A DNA stretch of 58,498 nt from Mycobacterium phage prophi91-4. Positions 1 through 9,000 of the stretch are shown here, one piece after another (the stretch's first letter is position 1; every line of letters starts with the position of its first letter). The stretch lies in the sequence record MW584206.1. One strand, given 5' to 3'. Made by a program: the position numbers.

Positions 1-3000
1 CCCAGAGGTCGCAGGTTCAAATCCTGTCCCCGCTACTAGGTCCCCAGGCCAGAGGATTAATTTCCTCTGGCCTGGGGTTTTTTTCTTGCCCTGTATCACC
101 CCAAGTCTCCATAAAGTCTCCATTAATTCGCAGGCTGTTCCAGCATGCGATCCAGCACGGCCGCCGCCTCGGGGTGTGCCTTGCCGCGAGCCAGATAGTG
201 CCGCTGTGTGGTGAGGATGTCGGCCTGACCAAGCGAGTCGGCGATGACGCGCATGGGAAGCCCCGCATCGTCCTTGAAGGTCGCGCCGGCCTTGCGGAAG
301 CTGTGCGCGGTGATGTCTTCGGCGATGCCCAGGGCAGCGCGGATCCGGCGCCATTGTGTCGCGACGTTGGTGGGGTCTCGCGGGGTCCACTCGTCGGACG
401 GAAACACGAGGTCTGCGAACTCGTCGGCGATCGGCGCCCCGAATGCGAGCTTGCGCTTGGCCAGTGCGTGCTTGCGGGCCTCCAGGGTCTTGATGGCGAA
501 CTCCGGCACCGAGATTGGCTGGAAGCGGTTCTTCGGGTCGTCGTCTTTGGTGACGCGCACTAGGCCCTTGCCCTTGACGCGGGTGATCTTGCCTGAAGGC
601 ACGAACACACGGTTGACCAAATCGAAGTCTGGCCACACCACGCCGAGCACCTGGCTGGTGCGCAGGTTCAGCCCATACAGCAGATCCACGTAGTCGGCCA
701 TGTCTGCACTCTCGCAGTACTCGGCGACCGTGGGCGGCGTGTAGCTCCTGGGCGGTTTCTGGCGCTCGGCGGCCGACAGGATCCGCGGGCACGGCGCCGC
801 AGACCTTCGTACGGCCTCGAGGATGAACCGAACGTCCTCGGCGCCAATATGGGCCGCGCCACCGGTGCGGCCCTTAGGTTCGACATCCTTGTCGAGCTCC
901 ACCTCGCGCAGGGGATTCACTGAGACCGCGCCGCTGCTGATCCGAATCGCGTAGCGGAACATGCCAGAGAGTGCCGAACGGCACGCTTTGGCGGACCCGG
1001 GACCGTGGTGCTCTGCCAGATCCGAGAGGTAGGACTCCAGGAACGTGGTGGGAACCTCGGAAAGTCGACGCGAACCGAAGCGCTTGATGAACCGCTCGGC
1101 CTCGCGGTCGTAGGAGTCCAAGGTGCGCTGTGCGCGGCCCTTCTTGAGTAGATAGGGGCGGTAGTGCGTGGTCCAGAGCGTGGCGACGGTGGTGCTCAAG
1201 GTGATCGTGTTGTCCATCGGTGAGCTGGCCAGATCGCGGGCCGCCACCTGGACAGCTTCGGCCGCACGATTGCCTCCAGCGTCCGGAATCGCGCGTCCGC
1301 GAGTGTCGAACTTGGGAGGGCTGATGCGCTGTAGCTTGCGGGGCCTGCCGCTCGCGTCGCGCACTGAGACGATGGCCTCCCAGACGCCGGGGGCGATCTC
1401 CTTGCGGTGCACCCTGCCGGGAACCCCTATGGGTCGCTGCGGCCTACCGCGTGACACCGCGCGCCCCCGGAGTGAGCGTCAACCCTGGCTTCATGGGCAG
1501 TCATTCTAGTCCGTTCTGCGACAACAGATCTGGCGATCGCGTACACCAATTGACTGTCCAAAACTGTCTAACGTGGTCGGTTACTGTCCGATGGGTGCGG
1601 AGCTCGTTCTGGCGCAAAGCGGGTTGCTAGAACGGAGTAACGGCTTCCACGCTCACCGTCATTCCGTGAGCAGTTGCATCATTGATGAACTTCGTGCCCT
1701 CGGTGGTTGGGGTGATAGTCCAGCCAAGGGTGCGATAAACCGTCCCGTAGCTCAAGGTCTTGTATTGCACCTGTCCGCGATCACCGATCATCCAGTTGAA
1801 GTCGCCCCCGGCCGTGATCTCCACGCCGTTGGCAGGCATCCCATACATGATCGGTGTGCTGATGCTGAACCGCACCAAACATCCGACCCTGCCAGGGGTG
1901 ACTTGGCAAGAAGTCTTTCCAGATTTGGTGCCGACAAAAACACTTCCATCCGGAGCAGGCAGAGCGATCGGTGCGGGGCTCACGGTCGTTACGGGCGGAG
2001 TAGGAGGTGCTGGAGGTGGAGCGGTGACCTTTGGCGCAATCACCGAGGATGGGGGTATGGGTGATCCGATGGCTGGTGTCTCATGGGGGCCTTCGCGGAG
2101 GAAGACGTATGCGCCACCGGCAGCGAGGCACGCGACCGCAGCTGTAGCCCCGAACACGATGCCACTGATCAACCAGTTGCGCCGCCCGAAATCGTCGTAG
2201 GGCTCTAGCTCGTCAATGTCATCAGAATCGGACCACGCCGCCGGGACCGCGCCAGCCATACCGGTGTCCGCCAGGGCGGCGCTCGAAGCCATAGTTGGCT
2301 CCTGGCCGAGGTCGTCGTCGCGAGTATCCACAGAATGTCGACCCTCCCGATATCCGCGGTGCCAGCGCAATCTACACCGAGCCAAGATCAGTCACGGGCT
2401 TTTGACAGTCCGAATGCCGACTTCTCGCCCGCTGCTGATTTTCTTGAAAATTGTTGGAACCGAATTGGCCCTAGTGTCGTCGTATCTAGATGAATGCCAG
2501 TTGTTACGACAGAACGCGAGGTGGGCAGTGGGCGAGTACAAGTTCGACATCAATGGGATGTCCCAGGATGCTCGGCAGGACGCCGCAGAGGCTGCTCGCA
2601 CCACACTAAAGTTCAAGGACGGCTACGGCATGGAGCTCGCCGGGGACATGCTGCGGGCTCGTGACATGGTCGAGACACAGATTTCAGCCGTGAGCCTTGA
2701 TCAAGATCTTGCGTTGGGGGATCTGCCTTCCGGGAAGGCTGCGGCTAAGCACTATGCCACCCAGCGTGCAGCTGCCGTCGATGCCCTCAAGAAGATCTCG
2801 GCGCATTACAAAAGTCACGCCGACCACTTCATCGCCACCGAGATGTTGTACCGCAACACTGAGGAGCGCAACGCCGGCCGGATCAACCCGTACAAGGATG
2901 GAACGGCCACGGTGAAGTACTGATGATGCGATTAGTTCTGACGATGGCGGCCGTGGCCTTCGCGATTGTGGGCTGCGGCCCGTCGACCGGCATCACCAAG

Positions 3001-6000: not shown

Positions 6001-9000
6001 CTGGCTGGCGATCCTCCTGATGGTGGCGCACATCAGTATCACGACGACCAGCGCGTTGGGTTCGACTGCGGCGGACTCGTGCGCTACTCGACTAAGCAGG
6101 GCGCCGGATACGACGTGTTCCAACGAGCCGACGGCCTGGACTCCGGTGCAGGTACCGACCGAATCGACAAGAGTCAGCACCTAGCGCCTATTGACGGAGG
6201 CGCACGTATCCCATCCGCGCAGATTTCGAGTATCGCCCGGCCGGGCGACATCCTGGTCTTCGAGATCCCCGGTAGCGGACATGAGGCATTCAGTGGCCAG
6301 AACACCCAACACACCGGTATCTATGTTGGGAATGGGTTCATGATTAACGCACCAGAATCCGGAGTGCCGGTCCGATTAGACAACGCGGACCGTGATGGAA
6401 GACGAACCGACGTTTTGAGGCTGAAATGACGCTGCTGCACGTGTGCTCGCTCCTGCTGGCTGTGGGTCTCTCCGCCGGGTGCGGCCCGGCAACGTCAACC
6501 CAATCCACCGTCAGCGCATCGCCGATCGCAAGTACATCGGCAGCGGTACCGGACAACGACGGTGTGATGGCTCGTTTCACTAATGACATCTGGCCGGCTG
6601 TCGAGGGTTACAGGTGGCCAGGGCAAGGAAGCCCGGCATACAAACGATTCGTGTCAATCGTCGCCCCCGATCGGTTCAGCGCAGCACACGATGCGGCGGT
6701 CCGGCTCGGCAAGGTGTACAACAGCGACGGCTACCCGGTCAGTGGGCCCGACGCGGAGCATGGACTGAAACTCGTTGACACCGCGCTTACCTCTCTTGAG
6801 TCATCGATAGCGGTAATCAGCACTTGCTATACCTACCCGTCATTCAAAAGCGGCGACACCACGGGGACTCCATCCGCGTCCGAGGCGACCTTTGAGTTAC
6901 GGAAGACCGATAATTGGTATCTCTGGGACATCACCAATGACCATGTCGTATCGGGATGTTCGGCATCGGATCATGCATGATCGGTTGGCGAAGCCATCGC
7001 ACACAAGCATTGGTCTCAGCTACCGCTCTGATCATCGCGGCGTGCTCGGATGCCTCCGATACAACGAGTTCGACGCCCTCGCGGCCGCCGGCGGTATGTG
7101 AATCCAACTTCACGCGGGACCAATTCGCCGGTAGCTGGGACGAGGATAGCTCCCCGGGTATGTACACCCTGAACACGGATGGCACCTTGGTCAACGGTGT
7201 GTTGGACGAGAAGCTCACTGGTACATGGGACTTCACAAAGTGGAGTCAAACACCAGGGAAGCCAACGCCCGGTGAGGAAAACGCTTGCGTTCTATGGCTC
7301 AAAATTAACTTCCGCAGCGGTCCCATGAATCTTCTCTACGCCCCGCTCAGCGTCAGCGATTCGACCTTGAAAATCAGCTACATCGGGCGTGGTAACACCA
7401 TCGTATGGAACCGTGCAAACAAGGCGTGAGTGCTGGTGACAGATTGTGAGTAAGCCACAACCCCAACTCGATCCAGCGCGGCTAGAGCTGGCCGCTGGTT
7501 TGTACGATATGGCGGCCTGGCAGCTCGACGCTTTCCTCGATGACGCTGCGGGCTACGGGATTTCGTCACCGGACGCTGCGAGCCTTCAGGCGCTCGCGGA
7601 TCTGATGCGGTGGCAGGCCGACGCGTATCGACGCTATGCGGTGAAGATGCGCGCCGATGACGAGATGGTCGATGCGTACTTCGCGGGTCGTGTGGTGGCG
7701 CCGAACACGGCAGCAGCCTTCGAAGCGTCGATAACCCGCGACGAACATCCACCGTTACCGAAACGGTCCAACGGCATCGACTACCAGCTGCTGAGGCCCG
7801 TGCGGGATCTACTCGAAGAGGCGCACGCAGTTCTTTCTCGCGGCTCGAGGCCGGCGATGGCGTACGCGGCCAAACAGGCTGCGGCGCTTTATTCCTGGTG
7901 CCATCCGCCACTGTCGGTGTGACGATCGGAAACTCTCCAGATAGTTGAAATTCGTTGGAACCGAATCGGTCTCACGCGACGTCGTACTAGATGTCAGCCG
8001 AACCCCGATTGCAGGAGCGTTCAACGATGAGCGAGACAAGCAAAAGGCTCCATGCGCGCGACCCGAGATGTTGCCACGGTGGCCGGGTGTGTGGCCTGCC
8101 GCCAGATACGTGACGTCACGCACCGCCAGCTGCGCCGTGCGACGTGGGGTGTTGGGCCTCAAGGTTGTACAGAATCCGCATGTTTGCCCTGGCGGAGTGT
8201 CGCCGACTCCGTGCGGTTGTCAGCACTGCCTACACGGCATTCACCGCAGGCATTGTCAGCCCTACTGTGTCTGTAGGCCCTATCTAGATTGCTTTGCTGG
8301 CATACGCATGATTTTTATATAATGCCTGCTAGTTGCATATAGGACTTAGGGATTTGACATTAGCGAAATGGAGGTATTGGGGGTATCTTTCAGCCCATGG
8401 CTATCGATAGTTACAAGGGACTGGAGGCCCGACGATTTTGGGGTGTGAGGGGGGTGCAGAGGTGGGGATAGCGTCGAGATATGCAGATGAGCGAGTCGGA
8501 TAGCCGCTGGCCTTGCCGTCCACCGGCAGTTTTGGCTGTCCACGAATGTCCGGTAGGTGAGGGGAGACTACTTCCATGACAACGAAATCAGTGGATGTGA
8601 TGGGCACGGAGTACCGGAACCTGGTCTCCGCCGGCTCGCCATGCCAAGGATTCTCGACGCCCAGCAGTGGTGGTTTCAATCGCCGCCCGGGCAGTGTTTG
8701 GCGCATCGGTTCGGGTTGGCAATGAAGAAAGTGGTCGTTAGTGGTGGGCATCCGTCGGCTCGGCTGCTTAAGGTCGGATCTATGCCGGAAATTGAGGTGA
8801 GAGGACAGGTCACGGTGGCTATACGGTCAGAAGATGCAGAACGTATGTGTTGGGCGCGAGCCCGAAACGGTTCCCAACGTGGCCATCCACGGCCATCGAG
8901 CACTCCACAGATGCTCCGGAGCGCCGGGTGGAAGTTGGGGCATGTAGAAGATCGCCAAGGTGTGCCCCATGCTGGTGAATGTGAGATCTGGCGGGCGAGA

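What the first reader, a model, noticed from the sequence alone, without database searches (positions are those of the whole stretch)
2444..7999. Two same-orientation copies of a conserved ~55-bp element bracket the toxin island
Copy A (2444-2499) and copy B (7944-7999) share TTGAAAnTnGTTGGAACCGAATnGG and, after a divergent 10-12 bp, GnCGTCGTA(t)CTAGATG, each ending at an ATG.
The ORFs after the two ATGs are unrelated (both about 39-40 codons), so the conserved unit is DNA or RNA, not protein.
Copy A lies in the divergent promoter region of the island's first operon. Copy B lies at the far edge of the island and is followed by no convincing gene.
Two readings: a shared promoter/operator or 5' leader, so the island is co-regulated, possibly by a host factor; or conserved boundary sequences that let whole toxin cassettes be swapped or deleted by homologous recombination between direct repeats.
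Basis: seen in the sequence. Interest (0 to 1): 0.55.

Follow-up and report, generated by a model that had tools for sequence, protein, structure and literature searches.

The report
Two SigM-type promoters bracket prophage toxin cassette
The two ~50-bp repeats are most likely promoters read by the host's alternative sigma factor SigM: one switches on the prophage's secreted-toxin operon together with the host ESX-4 secretion programme, and the other fires outward from the far end of the cassette for a purpose still unknown.

Summary
The repeat is real. Copy A (2444-2492) and copy B (7945-7993) align far better than chance: score 46 against a null of 23±2.

The window is Mycobacterium abscessus prophage prophiGD91-4. 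The region between the copies is an eight-gene ESX-type polymorphic-toxin cassette: PE-like, DUF3558, PPE-like, WXG100, NlpC/P60 toxin, two lipoproteins, and p8.

Both copies have the same layout:
- an A-rich stretch;
- TGGAACCG;
- 16 or 17 nt of spacer;
- CGTCGTA;
- an ATG 5-6 nt further on.

GGAACCG with an A-rich upstream region is the published -35 of M. abscessus SigM promoters. That regulon includes an operon with the same gene order (Mab_1828-1834).

Across 14 A variants and 7 B variants from relatives, most other positions vary. The two core blocks almost never do (P=5e-8 and P=1e-3). This is the pattern expected of a two-part sigma-factor promoter.

A drives the cassette. B sits 23 nt after the last gene, points toward the immunity region, and has no conserved gene or RNA structure downstream.

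Both copies lie at breakpoints of homology between prophages. I found no sign of A-B recombination, and the real att core is a 41-bp repeat at the window ends.

Verdict: a new member of a known kind. B's role remains open.

The parts
2444..2454 (+). Copy A: A/T-rich stretch upstream of the -35 (TTGAAAATTGT)
   Evidence: TGAA(A/G) is kept in most of the 14 A variants. The paper reports an A-rich region 5' of the SigM -35.
2455..2462 (+). Copy A: -35 element TGGAACCG (contains GGAACCG)
   Evidence: TGGAACC is invariant in 14 variants. It matches the '-35 GGAACCG motif' of M. abscessus SigM promoters.
2478..2484 (+). Copy A: -10 element CGTCGTA, 16 nt after TGGAACC
   Evidence: Only one substitution (CGTCCTA, in L005) occurs in 14 variants, while the spacer varies freely.
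2485..2527 (+). Copy A: predicted transcription start region (about 2489-2492, at the ATG) and 5' UTR with a Shine-Dalgarno sequence (GAGGTGGG) before the GTG start at 2528
   Evidence: The start site is inferred from spacing to the -10 and was not measured. The UTR is conserved in all homologous cassettes. The annotated start of the homologue in prophi68-1 matches.
2528..7922 (+). Eight-gene ESX-type polymorphic-toxin cassette driven by copy A. Genes: p1 2528-2923 (PE-like/'WXG motif protein'), p2 2923-3534 (DUF3558), p3 3547-4776 (PPE-like/'WXG motif protein'), p4 4826-5128 (WXG100), p5 5128-6429 (NlpC/P60 toxin), p6 6426-6980 and p7 6956-7429 (lipoprotein-like), p8 7446-7922
   Evidence: Pfam hits, annotation of homologues and coding GC profile. 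The gene order is the same as the SigM-induced operon Mab_1828-1834.
7945..7955 (+). Copy B: A/T-rich stretch upstream of the -35 (TTGAAATTCGT)
   Evidence: TGAAA is invariant in 7 B variants.
7956..7963 (+). Copy B: -35 element TGGAACCG
   Evidence: TGGAACC is invariant in 7 variants.
7980..7986 (+). Copy B: -10 element CGTCGTA, 17 nt after TGGAACC
   Evidence: Invariant in 7 variants, while 18 of 53 surrounding columns vary.
7987..8038 (+). Copy B: predicted start region (about 7990-7993) and a conserved ~45-nt leader with GGAG and an ATG at 8027. Similarity to other prophage lineages ends at about 8038
   Evidence: The start site is inferred. Downstream sequences fall into at least four unrelated types. 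The Shine-Dalgarno sequence and the reading frame are not kept in L035.

Best explanation
Both copies are promoters of the ECF (group 4) sigma-factor type. They are most likely read by the host's SigM, the sigma factor that co-induces ESX-4 substrates in M. abscessus.

Each copy has four parts:
- an A-rich upstream stretch;
- a -35 element TGGAACCG;
- a 16-nt (A) or 17-nt (B) spacer of free sequence;
- a -10 element CGTCGTA.

Transcription is predicted to start 5-6 nt later, at or next to the ATG.

Copy A is the promoter of the eight-gene toxin operon. Through it, the prophage's ESX-secreted toxin and its helper and immunity genes are switched on together with the host's SigM/ESX-4 programme.

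Copy B is a second promoter of the same class, also kept by selection. It lies 23 nt after the last cassette gene and fires away from the cassette toward the prophage immunity region. What it produces is not settled. The most likely product is a non-coding or antisense transcript, because no gene or RNA fold is conserved downstream.

The promoter-bearing ends, together with the conserved 3' end of p8, are the best-conserved parts of an otherwise variable cassette. For that reason they also coincide with the points where cassettes have been exchanged between prophages.

Shown here: the sequence layout, the recurrence, the selective conservation and the position of the breakpoints.
For: 1. The copies are not a chance match. 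They are the only intergenic GGAAC-N16-20-CGTC sites in 58 kb.

2. Canestrari et al. 2026 (PMC13491425) define the M. abscessus SigM site by a '-35 GGAACCG motif' with an A-rich region 5' of it. Induced transcripts begin next to the site. Both copies carry GGAACCG exactly, preceded by TTGAAA.

3. Their Table 1 lists PE-DUF3558-PPE triads as typical SigM cargo. It also lists operon 8, Mab_1828-1834: PE, DUF3558, PPE, WXG100, NlpC/P60, PknH-like, Dps-like. The window cassette has DUF3558, WXG100 and NlpC/P60 in the same order. Its other genes are annotated 'WXG motif protein' in relatives.

4. An A-type copy precedes every homologous cassette I could fetch. These came from M. abscessus, M. chelonae, M. 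franklinii and other Mycobacteroides.

5. Among 14 distinct A variants, 35 of 52 columns vary, but only 1 of the 14 core columns does (hypergeometric P=5e-8). Among 7 B variants, 18 of 53 columns vary and 0 of the 14 core columns do (P=1e-3). Spacing is fixed at 16 nt (A) and 17 nt (B), while the spacer sequence is free.

6. No sigma-70-type promoter is called at either site. No ECF sigma homologue was found in the window.

7. Dedrick et al. 2021 report that PT-Imm cassettes are expressed in lysogens from prophage promoters.
Against: - The -10 consensus of M. abscessus SigM appears only as a figure, so I could not compare CGTCGTA with it. My recollection of GGAAC...GTCCGA for M. tuberculosis SigM is from memory only.
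- I could not retrieve the ATCC 19977 operon 8 promoter or the esxUT promoter for a direct comparison.
- There are no transcription data for this prophage.
- B has no conserved downstream gene, so it may be weak, or kept for a reason other than transcription.
- B is absent after the p8 homologue in some cassettes (L007, L015) and truncated in a remnant island (L018). It is therefore dispensable for the cassette.
- Simpler WXG-toxin-immunity cassettes of other M. abscessus prophage clusters lack the motif. SigM wiring is thus not general to prophage toxins.
Confidence: 0.75

Rival explanations
1. The copies are mainly recombination 'linker' sequences. They would be conserved boundary segments whose job is to let toxin cassettes be exchanged between prophages by homologous recombination, or be deleted by A-B recombination. 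On this view the promoter-like features are incidental.
For: - Similarity between the window and prophi68-1/102-2 begins at 2436-2440, 4-8 nt before copy A. On the right it ends at 8038, just after B's leader.
- Against the close relative L011, 7458-7886 is about 17% diverged and 7887-10302 about 1% diverged. A crossover therefore lies at the p8 3' end or B.
- Also against L011, 2440-2523 is an 88% island flanked by unrelated DNA.
- A remnant island has a deletion end-point inside B.
Against: - Conservation is not even, as a recombination arm would predict. It is concentrated in the two 7-nt core blocks, with free spacers.
- A and B share only 13 bp of uninterrupted identity. This is short for RecA-dependent recombination (general knowledge).
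- No A/B hybrid was found in IMG/VR.
- The L018 deletion joins B to unrelated DNA, not to A.
- The crossover interval with L011 also contains the conserved 3' end of p8, which could be the arm.
Confidence: 0.12
2. The copies are promoters for a different ECF sigma factor. Candidates are SigE, SigH or another host GGAAC-type factor, or a sigma factor brought by a phage or island.
For: GGAAC -35 elements are shared by several mycobacterial ECF sigma factors (general knowledge). [quoted passage not shown]
Against: - The full 7-mer GGAACCG and the A-rich upstream stretch match what is described for SigM.
- The -10 is CGTC-type, not the GTT-type recalled for SigE and SigH (from memory).
- The cargo is typical SigM-regulon cargo.
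- No ECF sigma homologue was detected in the window, though with a low-sensitivity single-sequence search.
Confidence: 0.08
3. The copies are operators for a DNA-binding regulator, either the phage repressor or a host factor such as an ESX regulator, rather than sigma-factor recognition sites.
For: Two copies flank a lysogenically expressed module.
Against: - There is no dyad symmetry.
- The two conserved blocks are separated by a spacer of free sequence whose length differs by 1 nt between A and B.
- There is no copy in the repressor/cro intergenic region or anywhere else in the genome.
- The same element precedes homologous operons next to prophages with unrelated repressors.
Confidence: 0.04
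4. Copy B is a dead relic: the orphaned promoter, leader and start codon of a neighbouring SigM operon that was lost when the cassette was captured or shuffled. Copy A alone is functional.
For: - B carries a leader with a Shine-Dalgarno sequence and an ATG, but the sequence after the ATG differs between lineages.
- No coding signal or RNA fold lies downstream.
- B is missing or truncated in some cassettes.
Against: In 7 variants the 14 core positions are untouched, while a third of the neighbouring positions, including the Shine-Dalgarno sequence in L035, have changed (P=1e-3). This indicates continuing selection on promoter function.
Confidence: 0.15

Closest known systems
SigM-dependent promoters of the Mycobacterium abscessus ESX-4-focused regulon (Canestrari et al. 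2026, PMC13491425). [quoted passage not shown]
   Same: - A -35 of GGAACCG preceded by an A-rich stretch.
- A second conserved block at ECF-typical spacing.
- A position directly upstream of operons encoding PE-like, DUF3558, PPE-like and WXG100 proteins and an NlpC/P60 effector.
- One listed target (Mab_1828-1834) has the same gene order and, according to the paper, is an accessory locus present in 39 of 96 isolates.
   Different: - These copies are on an intact, att-bounded prophage (prophiGD91-4). The paper does not mention prophages.
- A second promoter of the same class sits at the 3' end of the operon, pointing outward, with no cargo.
- SigM dependence has not been tested for these copies.
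Prophage polymorphic toxin-immunity (PT-Imm) cassettes of M. abscessus (Dedrick et al. 2021, PMC8092301)
   Same: The window is one of their prophages (prophiGD91-4, cluster MabE2). The cassette lies next to attL, is transcribed rightward, and belongs to cassettes reported as expressed in lysogens 'from prophage promoters'.
   Different: That paper names no sigma factor or promoter motif. The simple three-gene WXG-toxin-immunity cassettes of clusters MabG, MabC and MabK lack the motif.
Phage 'morons': independently transcribed lysogenic-conversion modules (Hendrix and colleagues; general knowledge)
   Same: An accessory module sits between integration and immunity genes. It has its own promoter, is expressed from the prophage, and is mosaic between otherwise related phages.
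   Different: The promoter is tied to a specific host alternative sigma factor. The distal boundary carries a second promoter, not the terminator of the classical description.
Repeated regulatory motifs of mycobacteriophages: cluster A stoperators and cluster K start-associated sequences (general knowledge)
   Same: Short conserved non-coding motifs recur near gene starts in a mycobacteriophage genome.
   Different: Those occur in tens of copies per genome and act through the phage repressor or in translation. Here there are only two copies, with a two-part sigma-promoter layout that is shared with cassette loci flanked by ordinary host genes (L015).

Membership tests
M. abscessus SigM-dependent promoter | -35 element GGAACCG | tested here: met
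   There are exact 7/7 matches at 2456-2462 and 7957-7963. The motif is as stated in PMC13491425. TGGAACC is invariant in 21 variants.
M. abscessus SigM-dependent promoter | A-rich region immediately 5' of the -35 | tested here: met
   TTGAAAAT and TTGAAATT lie 5 nt upstream of TGGAACC. The feature is described. TGAAA is invariant in B variants and frequent in A variants.
M. abscessus SigM-dependent promoter | Consensus -10 element at the consensus spacing | tested here: inconclusive
   A conserved CGTC(G/C)TA block lies 16-17 nt after TGGAACC, which is typical for ECF promoters. The published -10 is given only in a figure, and the M. smegmatis and M. tuberculosis papers were not available.
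M. abscessus SigM-dependent promoter | Lies directly upstream of an operon of ESX-substrate-like genes | tested here: met
   Met for copy A, whose cargo includes DUF3558, WXG100 and an NlpC/P60 toxin with WXG-motif partners. Not met for copy B, which has no conserved downstream gene.
M. abscessus SigM-dependent promoter | Transcript level responds to SigM deletion or over-expression, with a start site next to the motif | not testable with these tools
   The published RNA-seq is from ATCC 19977, which lacks this prophage. Homology to operon 8 rests on gene order only; I could not fetch that locus.
Phage attachment site / site-specific recombination core | Identical core at both prophage ends, next to the integrase, overlapping a tRNA 3' end | tested here: not met
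   The real core is a perfect 41-bp repeat at 1-41 and 58458-58498, next to the integrase at 123-1457. A and B are internal and imperfect.
Homologous-recombination deletion repeats (A x B) | Long uninterrupted identity between the two copies, and recombinant 'solo' junctions in relatives | tested here: not met
   The longest shared run is 13 bp. No hybrid was found in IMG/VR. The only deletion seen ends inside B and joins unrelated DNA.
Repressor operator / stoperator-like repeated phage motif | Many copies per genome, or copies in the immunity switch region; dyad symmetry | tested here: not met
   There are only two copies, with none near the repressor at 9491-10330. The layout is asymmetric and two-part, with variable spacer length.
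Structured 5' leader RNA / small RNA | Stable conserved fold or a match to a known RNA family | tested here: not met
   Folding energies are no better than shuffles (z 0.1 to 1.8). There is no Rfam match at E ≤ 1 in 7900-9600. No antisense target scores above noise.

The most novel reading that the evidence does not exclude
Copy B may be a working SigM-triggered promoter whose outward transcript runs convergently into the prophage immunity region. In the window the repressor gene lies 1.5 kb downstream on the opposite strand. In an M. chelonae relative a minus-strand regulator starts about 100 nt downstream. The signal that activates host SigM and ESX-4, such as cell contact or envelope stress, would then launch the toxin operon and also modulate the lysogeny switch by antisense or transcriptional interference. 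This would be a sigma-factor-sensing link between bacterial antagonism and prophage induction.
Probability: 0.1. Interest if true: 0.8.

Novelty: new member of a known kind. Interest (0 to 1): 0.45.

Why it matters
If confirmed, an intact M. abscessus prophage places its ESX-secreted toxin cassette under the host's SigM programme rather than under a constitutive phage promoter. Toxin, chaperone-like partners and immunity genes would then be made exactly when ESX-4 substrates are induced.

This would connect two bodies of work that do not cite each other on the point: the prophage PT-Imm cassettes and the SigM/ESX-4 regulon. It would also explain why expression of such cassettes differs between lysogens.

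It gives a simple sequence rule, TGGAACC-N16/17-CGTC(G/C)TA with an A-rich lead-in, for finding SigM-wired accessory effectors in Mycobacteroides genomes.

The conserved but cargo-less outward promoter B is a small, well-defined puzzle that a reporter fusion could test directly.

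Tried and rejected
- **Sigma-70 (SigA) promoter using TTGAAA as the -35.** No suitable -10 follows, and the scan called nothing at either site.
- **Coding small ORFs after the ATGs.** The GC profile is not coding-like. Window/L011 substitutions are 1 synonymous to 2 non-synonymous (by hand, in the frame starting at 7991; one search's tally used a start one base off). L035 has a 1-nt indel and a mutated Shine-Dalgarno sequence, and L006 lacks the first ATG.
- **Structured leader or small RNA.** Folds are no better than shuffles, there is no Rfam hit, and no antisense target was found.
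- **A general rule for all prophage toxin cassettes.** The MabG, MabC and MabK cassettes and an NlpC/P60 cassette in another mobile element lack the motif.
- **Locating the experimentally validated operon 8 (Mab_1828-1834) or another listed SigM promoter.** The cluster listings did not reveal the UniProt entries. The MabA1 prophage of the ATCC 19977 type carries no such cassette at either end. I therefore could not show whether operon 8 is prophage-borne.
- **Finding the SigM -10 consensus in text.** The older papers are not held and searches gave nothing usable.
- **Finding B followed by an intact gene.** IMG/VR and JGI metagenome scans returned only the known lineages.

Full report
**1. What the window is**

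A DUF3558 protein encoded at 2923-3534 is identical to a protein of 'Mycobacterium phage prophi91-4', carried on a 58,498-bp contig. Dedrick et al. 2021 list prophiGD91-4 as cluster MabE2, 58,498 bp.

The window ends are a perfect 41-bp direct repeat (1-41 and 58458-58498). This is the att core, and it lies next to a tyrosine integrase at 123-1457. The window is therefore a whole integrated prophage of Mycobacterium abscessus.

**2. The observation**

Both copies exist as described. Their parts are:

| Part | Copy A | Copy B |
|---|---|---|
| TTGAAA | 2444-2449 | 7945-7950 |
| GGAACCG | 2456-2462 | 7957-7963 |
| CGTCGTA | 2478-2484 | 7980-7986 |
| ATG | 2490-2492 | 7991-7993 |

The 13-mer GTTGGAACCGAAT is found only at these two sites. 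A gapped local alignment of A against B scores 46. The next best hit in the whole window scores 22, and 200 simulated sequences gave 23.1 ± 1.9 with a maximum of 30.

The two ORFs that begin at the ATGs have 39 and 40 codons. They are unrelated and do not look coding.

**3. Surroundings**

An operon of eight same-strand genes lies between the copies:

| Gene | Coordinates | Assignment |
|---|---|---|
| p1 | 2528-2923 | 'WXG motif protein' in relatives |
| p2 | 2923-3534 | DUF3558 |
| p3 | 3547-4776 | 'WXG motif protein' in relatives |
| p4 | 4826-5128 | WXG100 |
| p5 | 5128-6429 | NlpC/P60 polymorphic toxin |
| p6 | 6426-6980 | lipoprotein-like |
| p7 | 6956-7429 | lipoprotein-like |
| p8 | 7446-7922 | unknown |

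Copy A lies in the divergent intergenic region 36 nt upstream of p1, counting from the ATG. Copy B begins 23 nt after the p8 stop. About 1.5 kb with no convincing ORF follows it. Next comes the repressor gene at 9491-10330 on the minus strand.

**4. Recurrence elsewhere**

The nearest deposited relatives are the MabE1 prophages prophi68-1 and prophi102-2. Both have an A-type copy before their first cassette gene and a B-type copy right after their last one.

A-type copies precede every homologous cassette I could fetch. These came from:
- other Mycobacteroides species (L003-L006);
- other M. abscessus islands (L007, L018-L024);
- a toxin-less p1-p2-p3-p8 operon flanked on one side by ordinary host genes (L015);
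- IMG/VR prophages.

B-type copies follow the p8 homologue in six lineages. B is absent after p8 in L007 and L015. It is cut off between its two blocks in a remnant island (L018/L022).

**5. What the element is**

Lining up 14 distinct A variants and 7 B variants shows a two-part pattern. TGGAACC and CGTC(G/C)TA are essentially invariant. The 16-nt (A) or 17-nt (B) spacer and the flanks change freely.

- For A, 35 of 52 columns vary, but only 1 of the 14 core columns does (hypergeometric P=5e-8).
- For B, 18 of 53 columns vary and none of the 14 core columns does (P=1e-3).

The sequences are related, so these are tests of where changes fall, not of independent events. Two fixed blocks, fixed spacing, a free spacer and no dyad symmetry are the layout of a sigma-factor promoter. 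GGAAC...CGTC is the ECF (group 4) type. A sigma-70 consensus scan calls nothing at either site.

**6. Which sigma factor**

Canestrari et al. 2026 (PMC13491425) defined the SigM regulon of M. abscessus as 15 loci and 50 genes. They describe the site by a '-35 GGAACCG motif' and note an A-rich region 5' of it. Induced transcripts begin immediately next to the site. Both copies carry GGAACCG exactly, preceded by TTGAAA.

Their Table 1 shows that PE-DUF3558-PPE triads are the commonest cargo. Operon 8, Mab_1828-1834, reads PE, DUF3558, PPE, WXG100, NlpC/P60, PknH-like, Dps-like. This is the same order as p1-p8 here. According to the paper it is an accessory locus, present in 39 of 96 isolates.

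The match of the -35, the upstream composition and the cargo makes SigM the best candidate. I could not check the -10 against the published logo, because it is only in a figure and the earlier SigM papers are not held. My recollection that M. tuberculosis SigM uses GGAAC...GTCCGA is from memory only. The L005 variant CGTCCTA would fit it.

No ECF sigma homologue is detectable in the prophage itself (low sensitivity). The same promoter also stands before a cassette locus flanked on one side by ordinary host genes (L015). Both points favour a host factor.

**7. How it most likely works**

Copy A is the operon promoter. Transcription is inferred to start at about 2490 from the spacing to the -10. 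This gives a roughly 38-nt leader with a Shine-Dalgarno sequence before the GTG at 2528. The toxin, its WXG partners and the lipoprotein-like genes would be induced with the host ESX-4 substrates.

This agrees with Dedrick et al., who saw PT-Imm cassettes expressed in lysogens 'from prophage promoters', though not in every lysogen. They named no sigma factor. The SigM paper does not mention prophages. The wiring is specific to this cassette type: the three-gene WXG-toxin-immunity cassettes of clusters MabG, MabC and MabK, and an NlpC/P60 cassette in another element, lack the motif.

**8. Copy B**

Its core is under the same selective pattern as A, so it is probably an active promoter of the same class. 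What it transcribes is unclear.

A roughly 45-nt leader with GGAG and an ATG (8027) is shared by most lineages. The sequence after that ATG then falls into at least four unrelated types. One lineage (L035) has GGAG mutated to GGAT and a 1-nt indel after the ATG. Another (L006) lacks the first ATG.

Further negative results for the region downstream of B:
- It has no coding-like composition.
- It folds no better than shuffled sequence.
- It matches no Rfam family.
- It has no antisense target in the genome above noise.

B always points toward the immunity region. In the window the repressor gene is 1.5 kb downstream and convergent. In the M. chelonae locus a minus-strand regulator ends about 100 nt downstream. 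An outward, non-coding or antisense transcript is my best guess. A link to the lysogeny switch is possible but untested.

**9. The boundary reading**

The copies do sit at breakpoints of homology.
- Similarity to prophi68-1/102-2 starts at 2436-2440. On the right it stops at 8038.
- Against the close relative L011, 2440-2523 is an 88% island between unrelated sequences.
- Also against L011, divergence drops from about 17% (7458-7886) to about 1% (7887-10302). A crossover therefore lies in the last 36 nt of p8 or in B.

The cassette thus has conserved ends and a variable toxin-immunity centre, and it has been exchanged between backbones.

The evidence does not support A-B recombination. The copies share only 13 uninterrupted bases. 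No hybrid junction exists in IMG/VR. The one deletion seen (L018/L022) joins the middle of B to unrelated DNA, inside an 8-kb island bounded by 165-bp att-like repeats. I read the coincidence with breakpoints as a consequence of these segments being the best-conserved DNA of the module, not as their function.

**10. Verdict**

The second reading is supported only as 'the copies mark module boundaries'.

This is a new member of a known kind of element. The modestly new point is that an intact prophage wires an ESX toxin cassette into the SigM regulon. The unexplained part is the conserved outward promoter B.

Noticed in passing
window 1-41 and 58458-58498: A perfect 41-bp direct repeat (CCCAGAGGTCGCAGGTTCAAATCCTGTCCCCGCTACTAGGT) lies at the two ends of the window. 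It looks like the 3' part of a tRNA (inference from the sequence) and is the prophage att core. ARAGORN calls no complete tRNA.
   Followed up: partly
L018 7128-7292, 15242-15403, 17775-17890 (M. abscessus CP194522.1): An 8-kb remnant island holds an ApeA-like gene, the toxin cassette and a B copy truncated between its -35 and -10. It is bounded by 165-bp att-like direct repeats. A second small island (DUF4917/DUF3892) sits in tandem behind a third repeat. In strain L020 the same left end continues into a full prophage.
   Followed up: partly
L015 9606-12313 and 6176-9423 (M. abscessus FVCT01000002.1): A widespread locus, with host metabolic genes on one side and HTH/HNH genes on the other, carries p1-DUF3558-p3-p8 with an A-type promoter but no toxin. 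A divergent operon next to it encodes a WXG100-like protein, a WXG/Abhydrolase_8 protein, an LppA lipoprotein and YbaB. The prophage cassettes look like this operon with a WXG100-toxin-immunity unit inserted between p3 and p8.
   Followed up: partly
window 7887-8008 versus L011: There is a sharp change in divergence between two related prophages, from about 17% to the left to about 1% to the right. This marks a recent recombination junction at the p8 3' end or copy B.
   Followed up: yes
window 7994-9490: About 1.5 kb between copy B and the repressor gene has no convincing ORF and no match in the phage collection. It contains an AT-rich patch (8300-8400, 41% G+C) with a sigma-70-like TTGCTG-N18-TATAAT at 8294-8323, read by eye. 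It also has a terminator-like hairpin with a T-run at 8513-8529.
   Followed up: no
window 52746-53113: Degenerate tandem repeats of about 54/108 nt (61-73% identity) lie inside the ORF 52621-53673 near the right end of the prophage. Their function was not examined.
   Followed up: no
L002 9590-9680 (prophi102-2): A short tandem array of GATTGCGGTCGATTACGAAC-like units lies about 200 nt downstream of that prophage's B copy. Its meaning is unknown.
   Followed up: no
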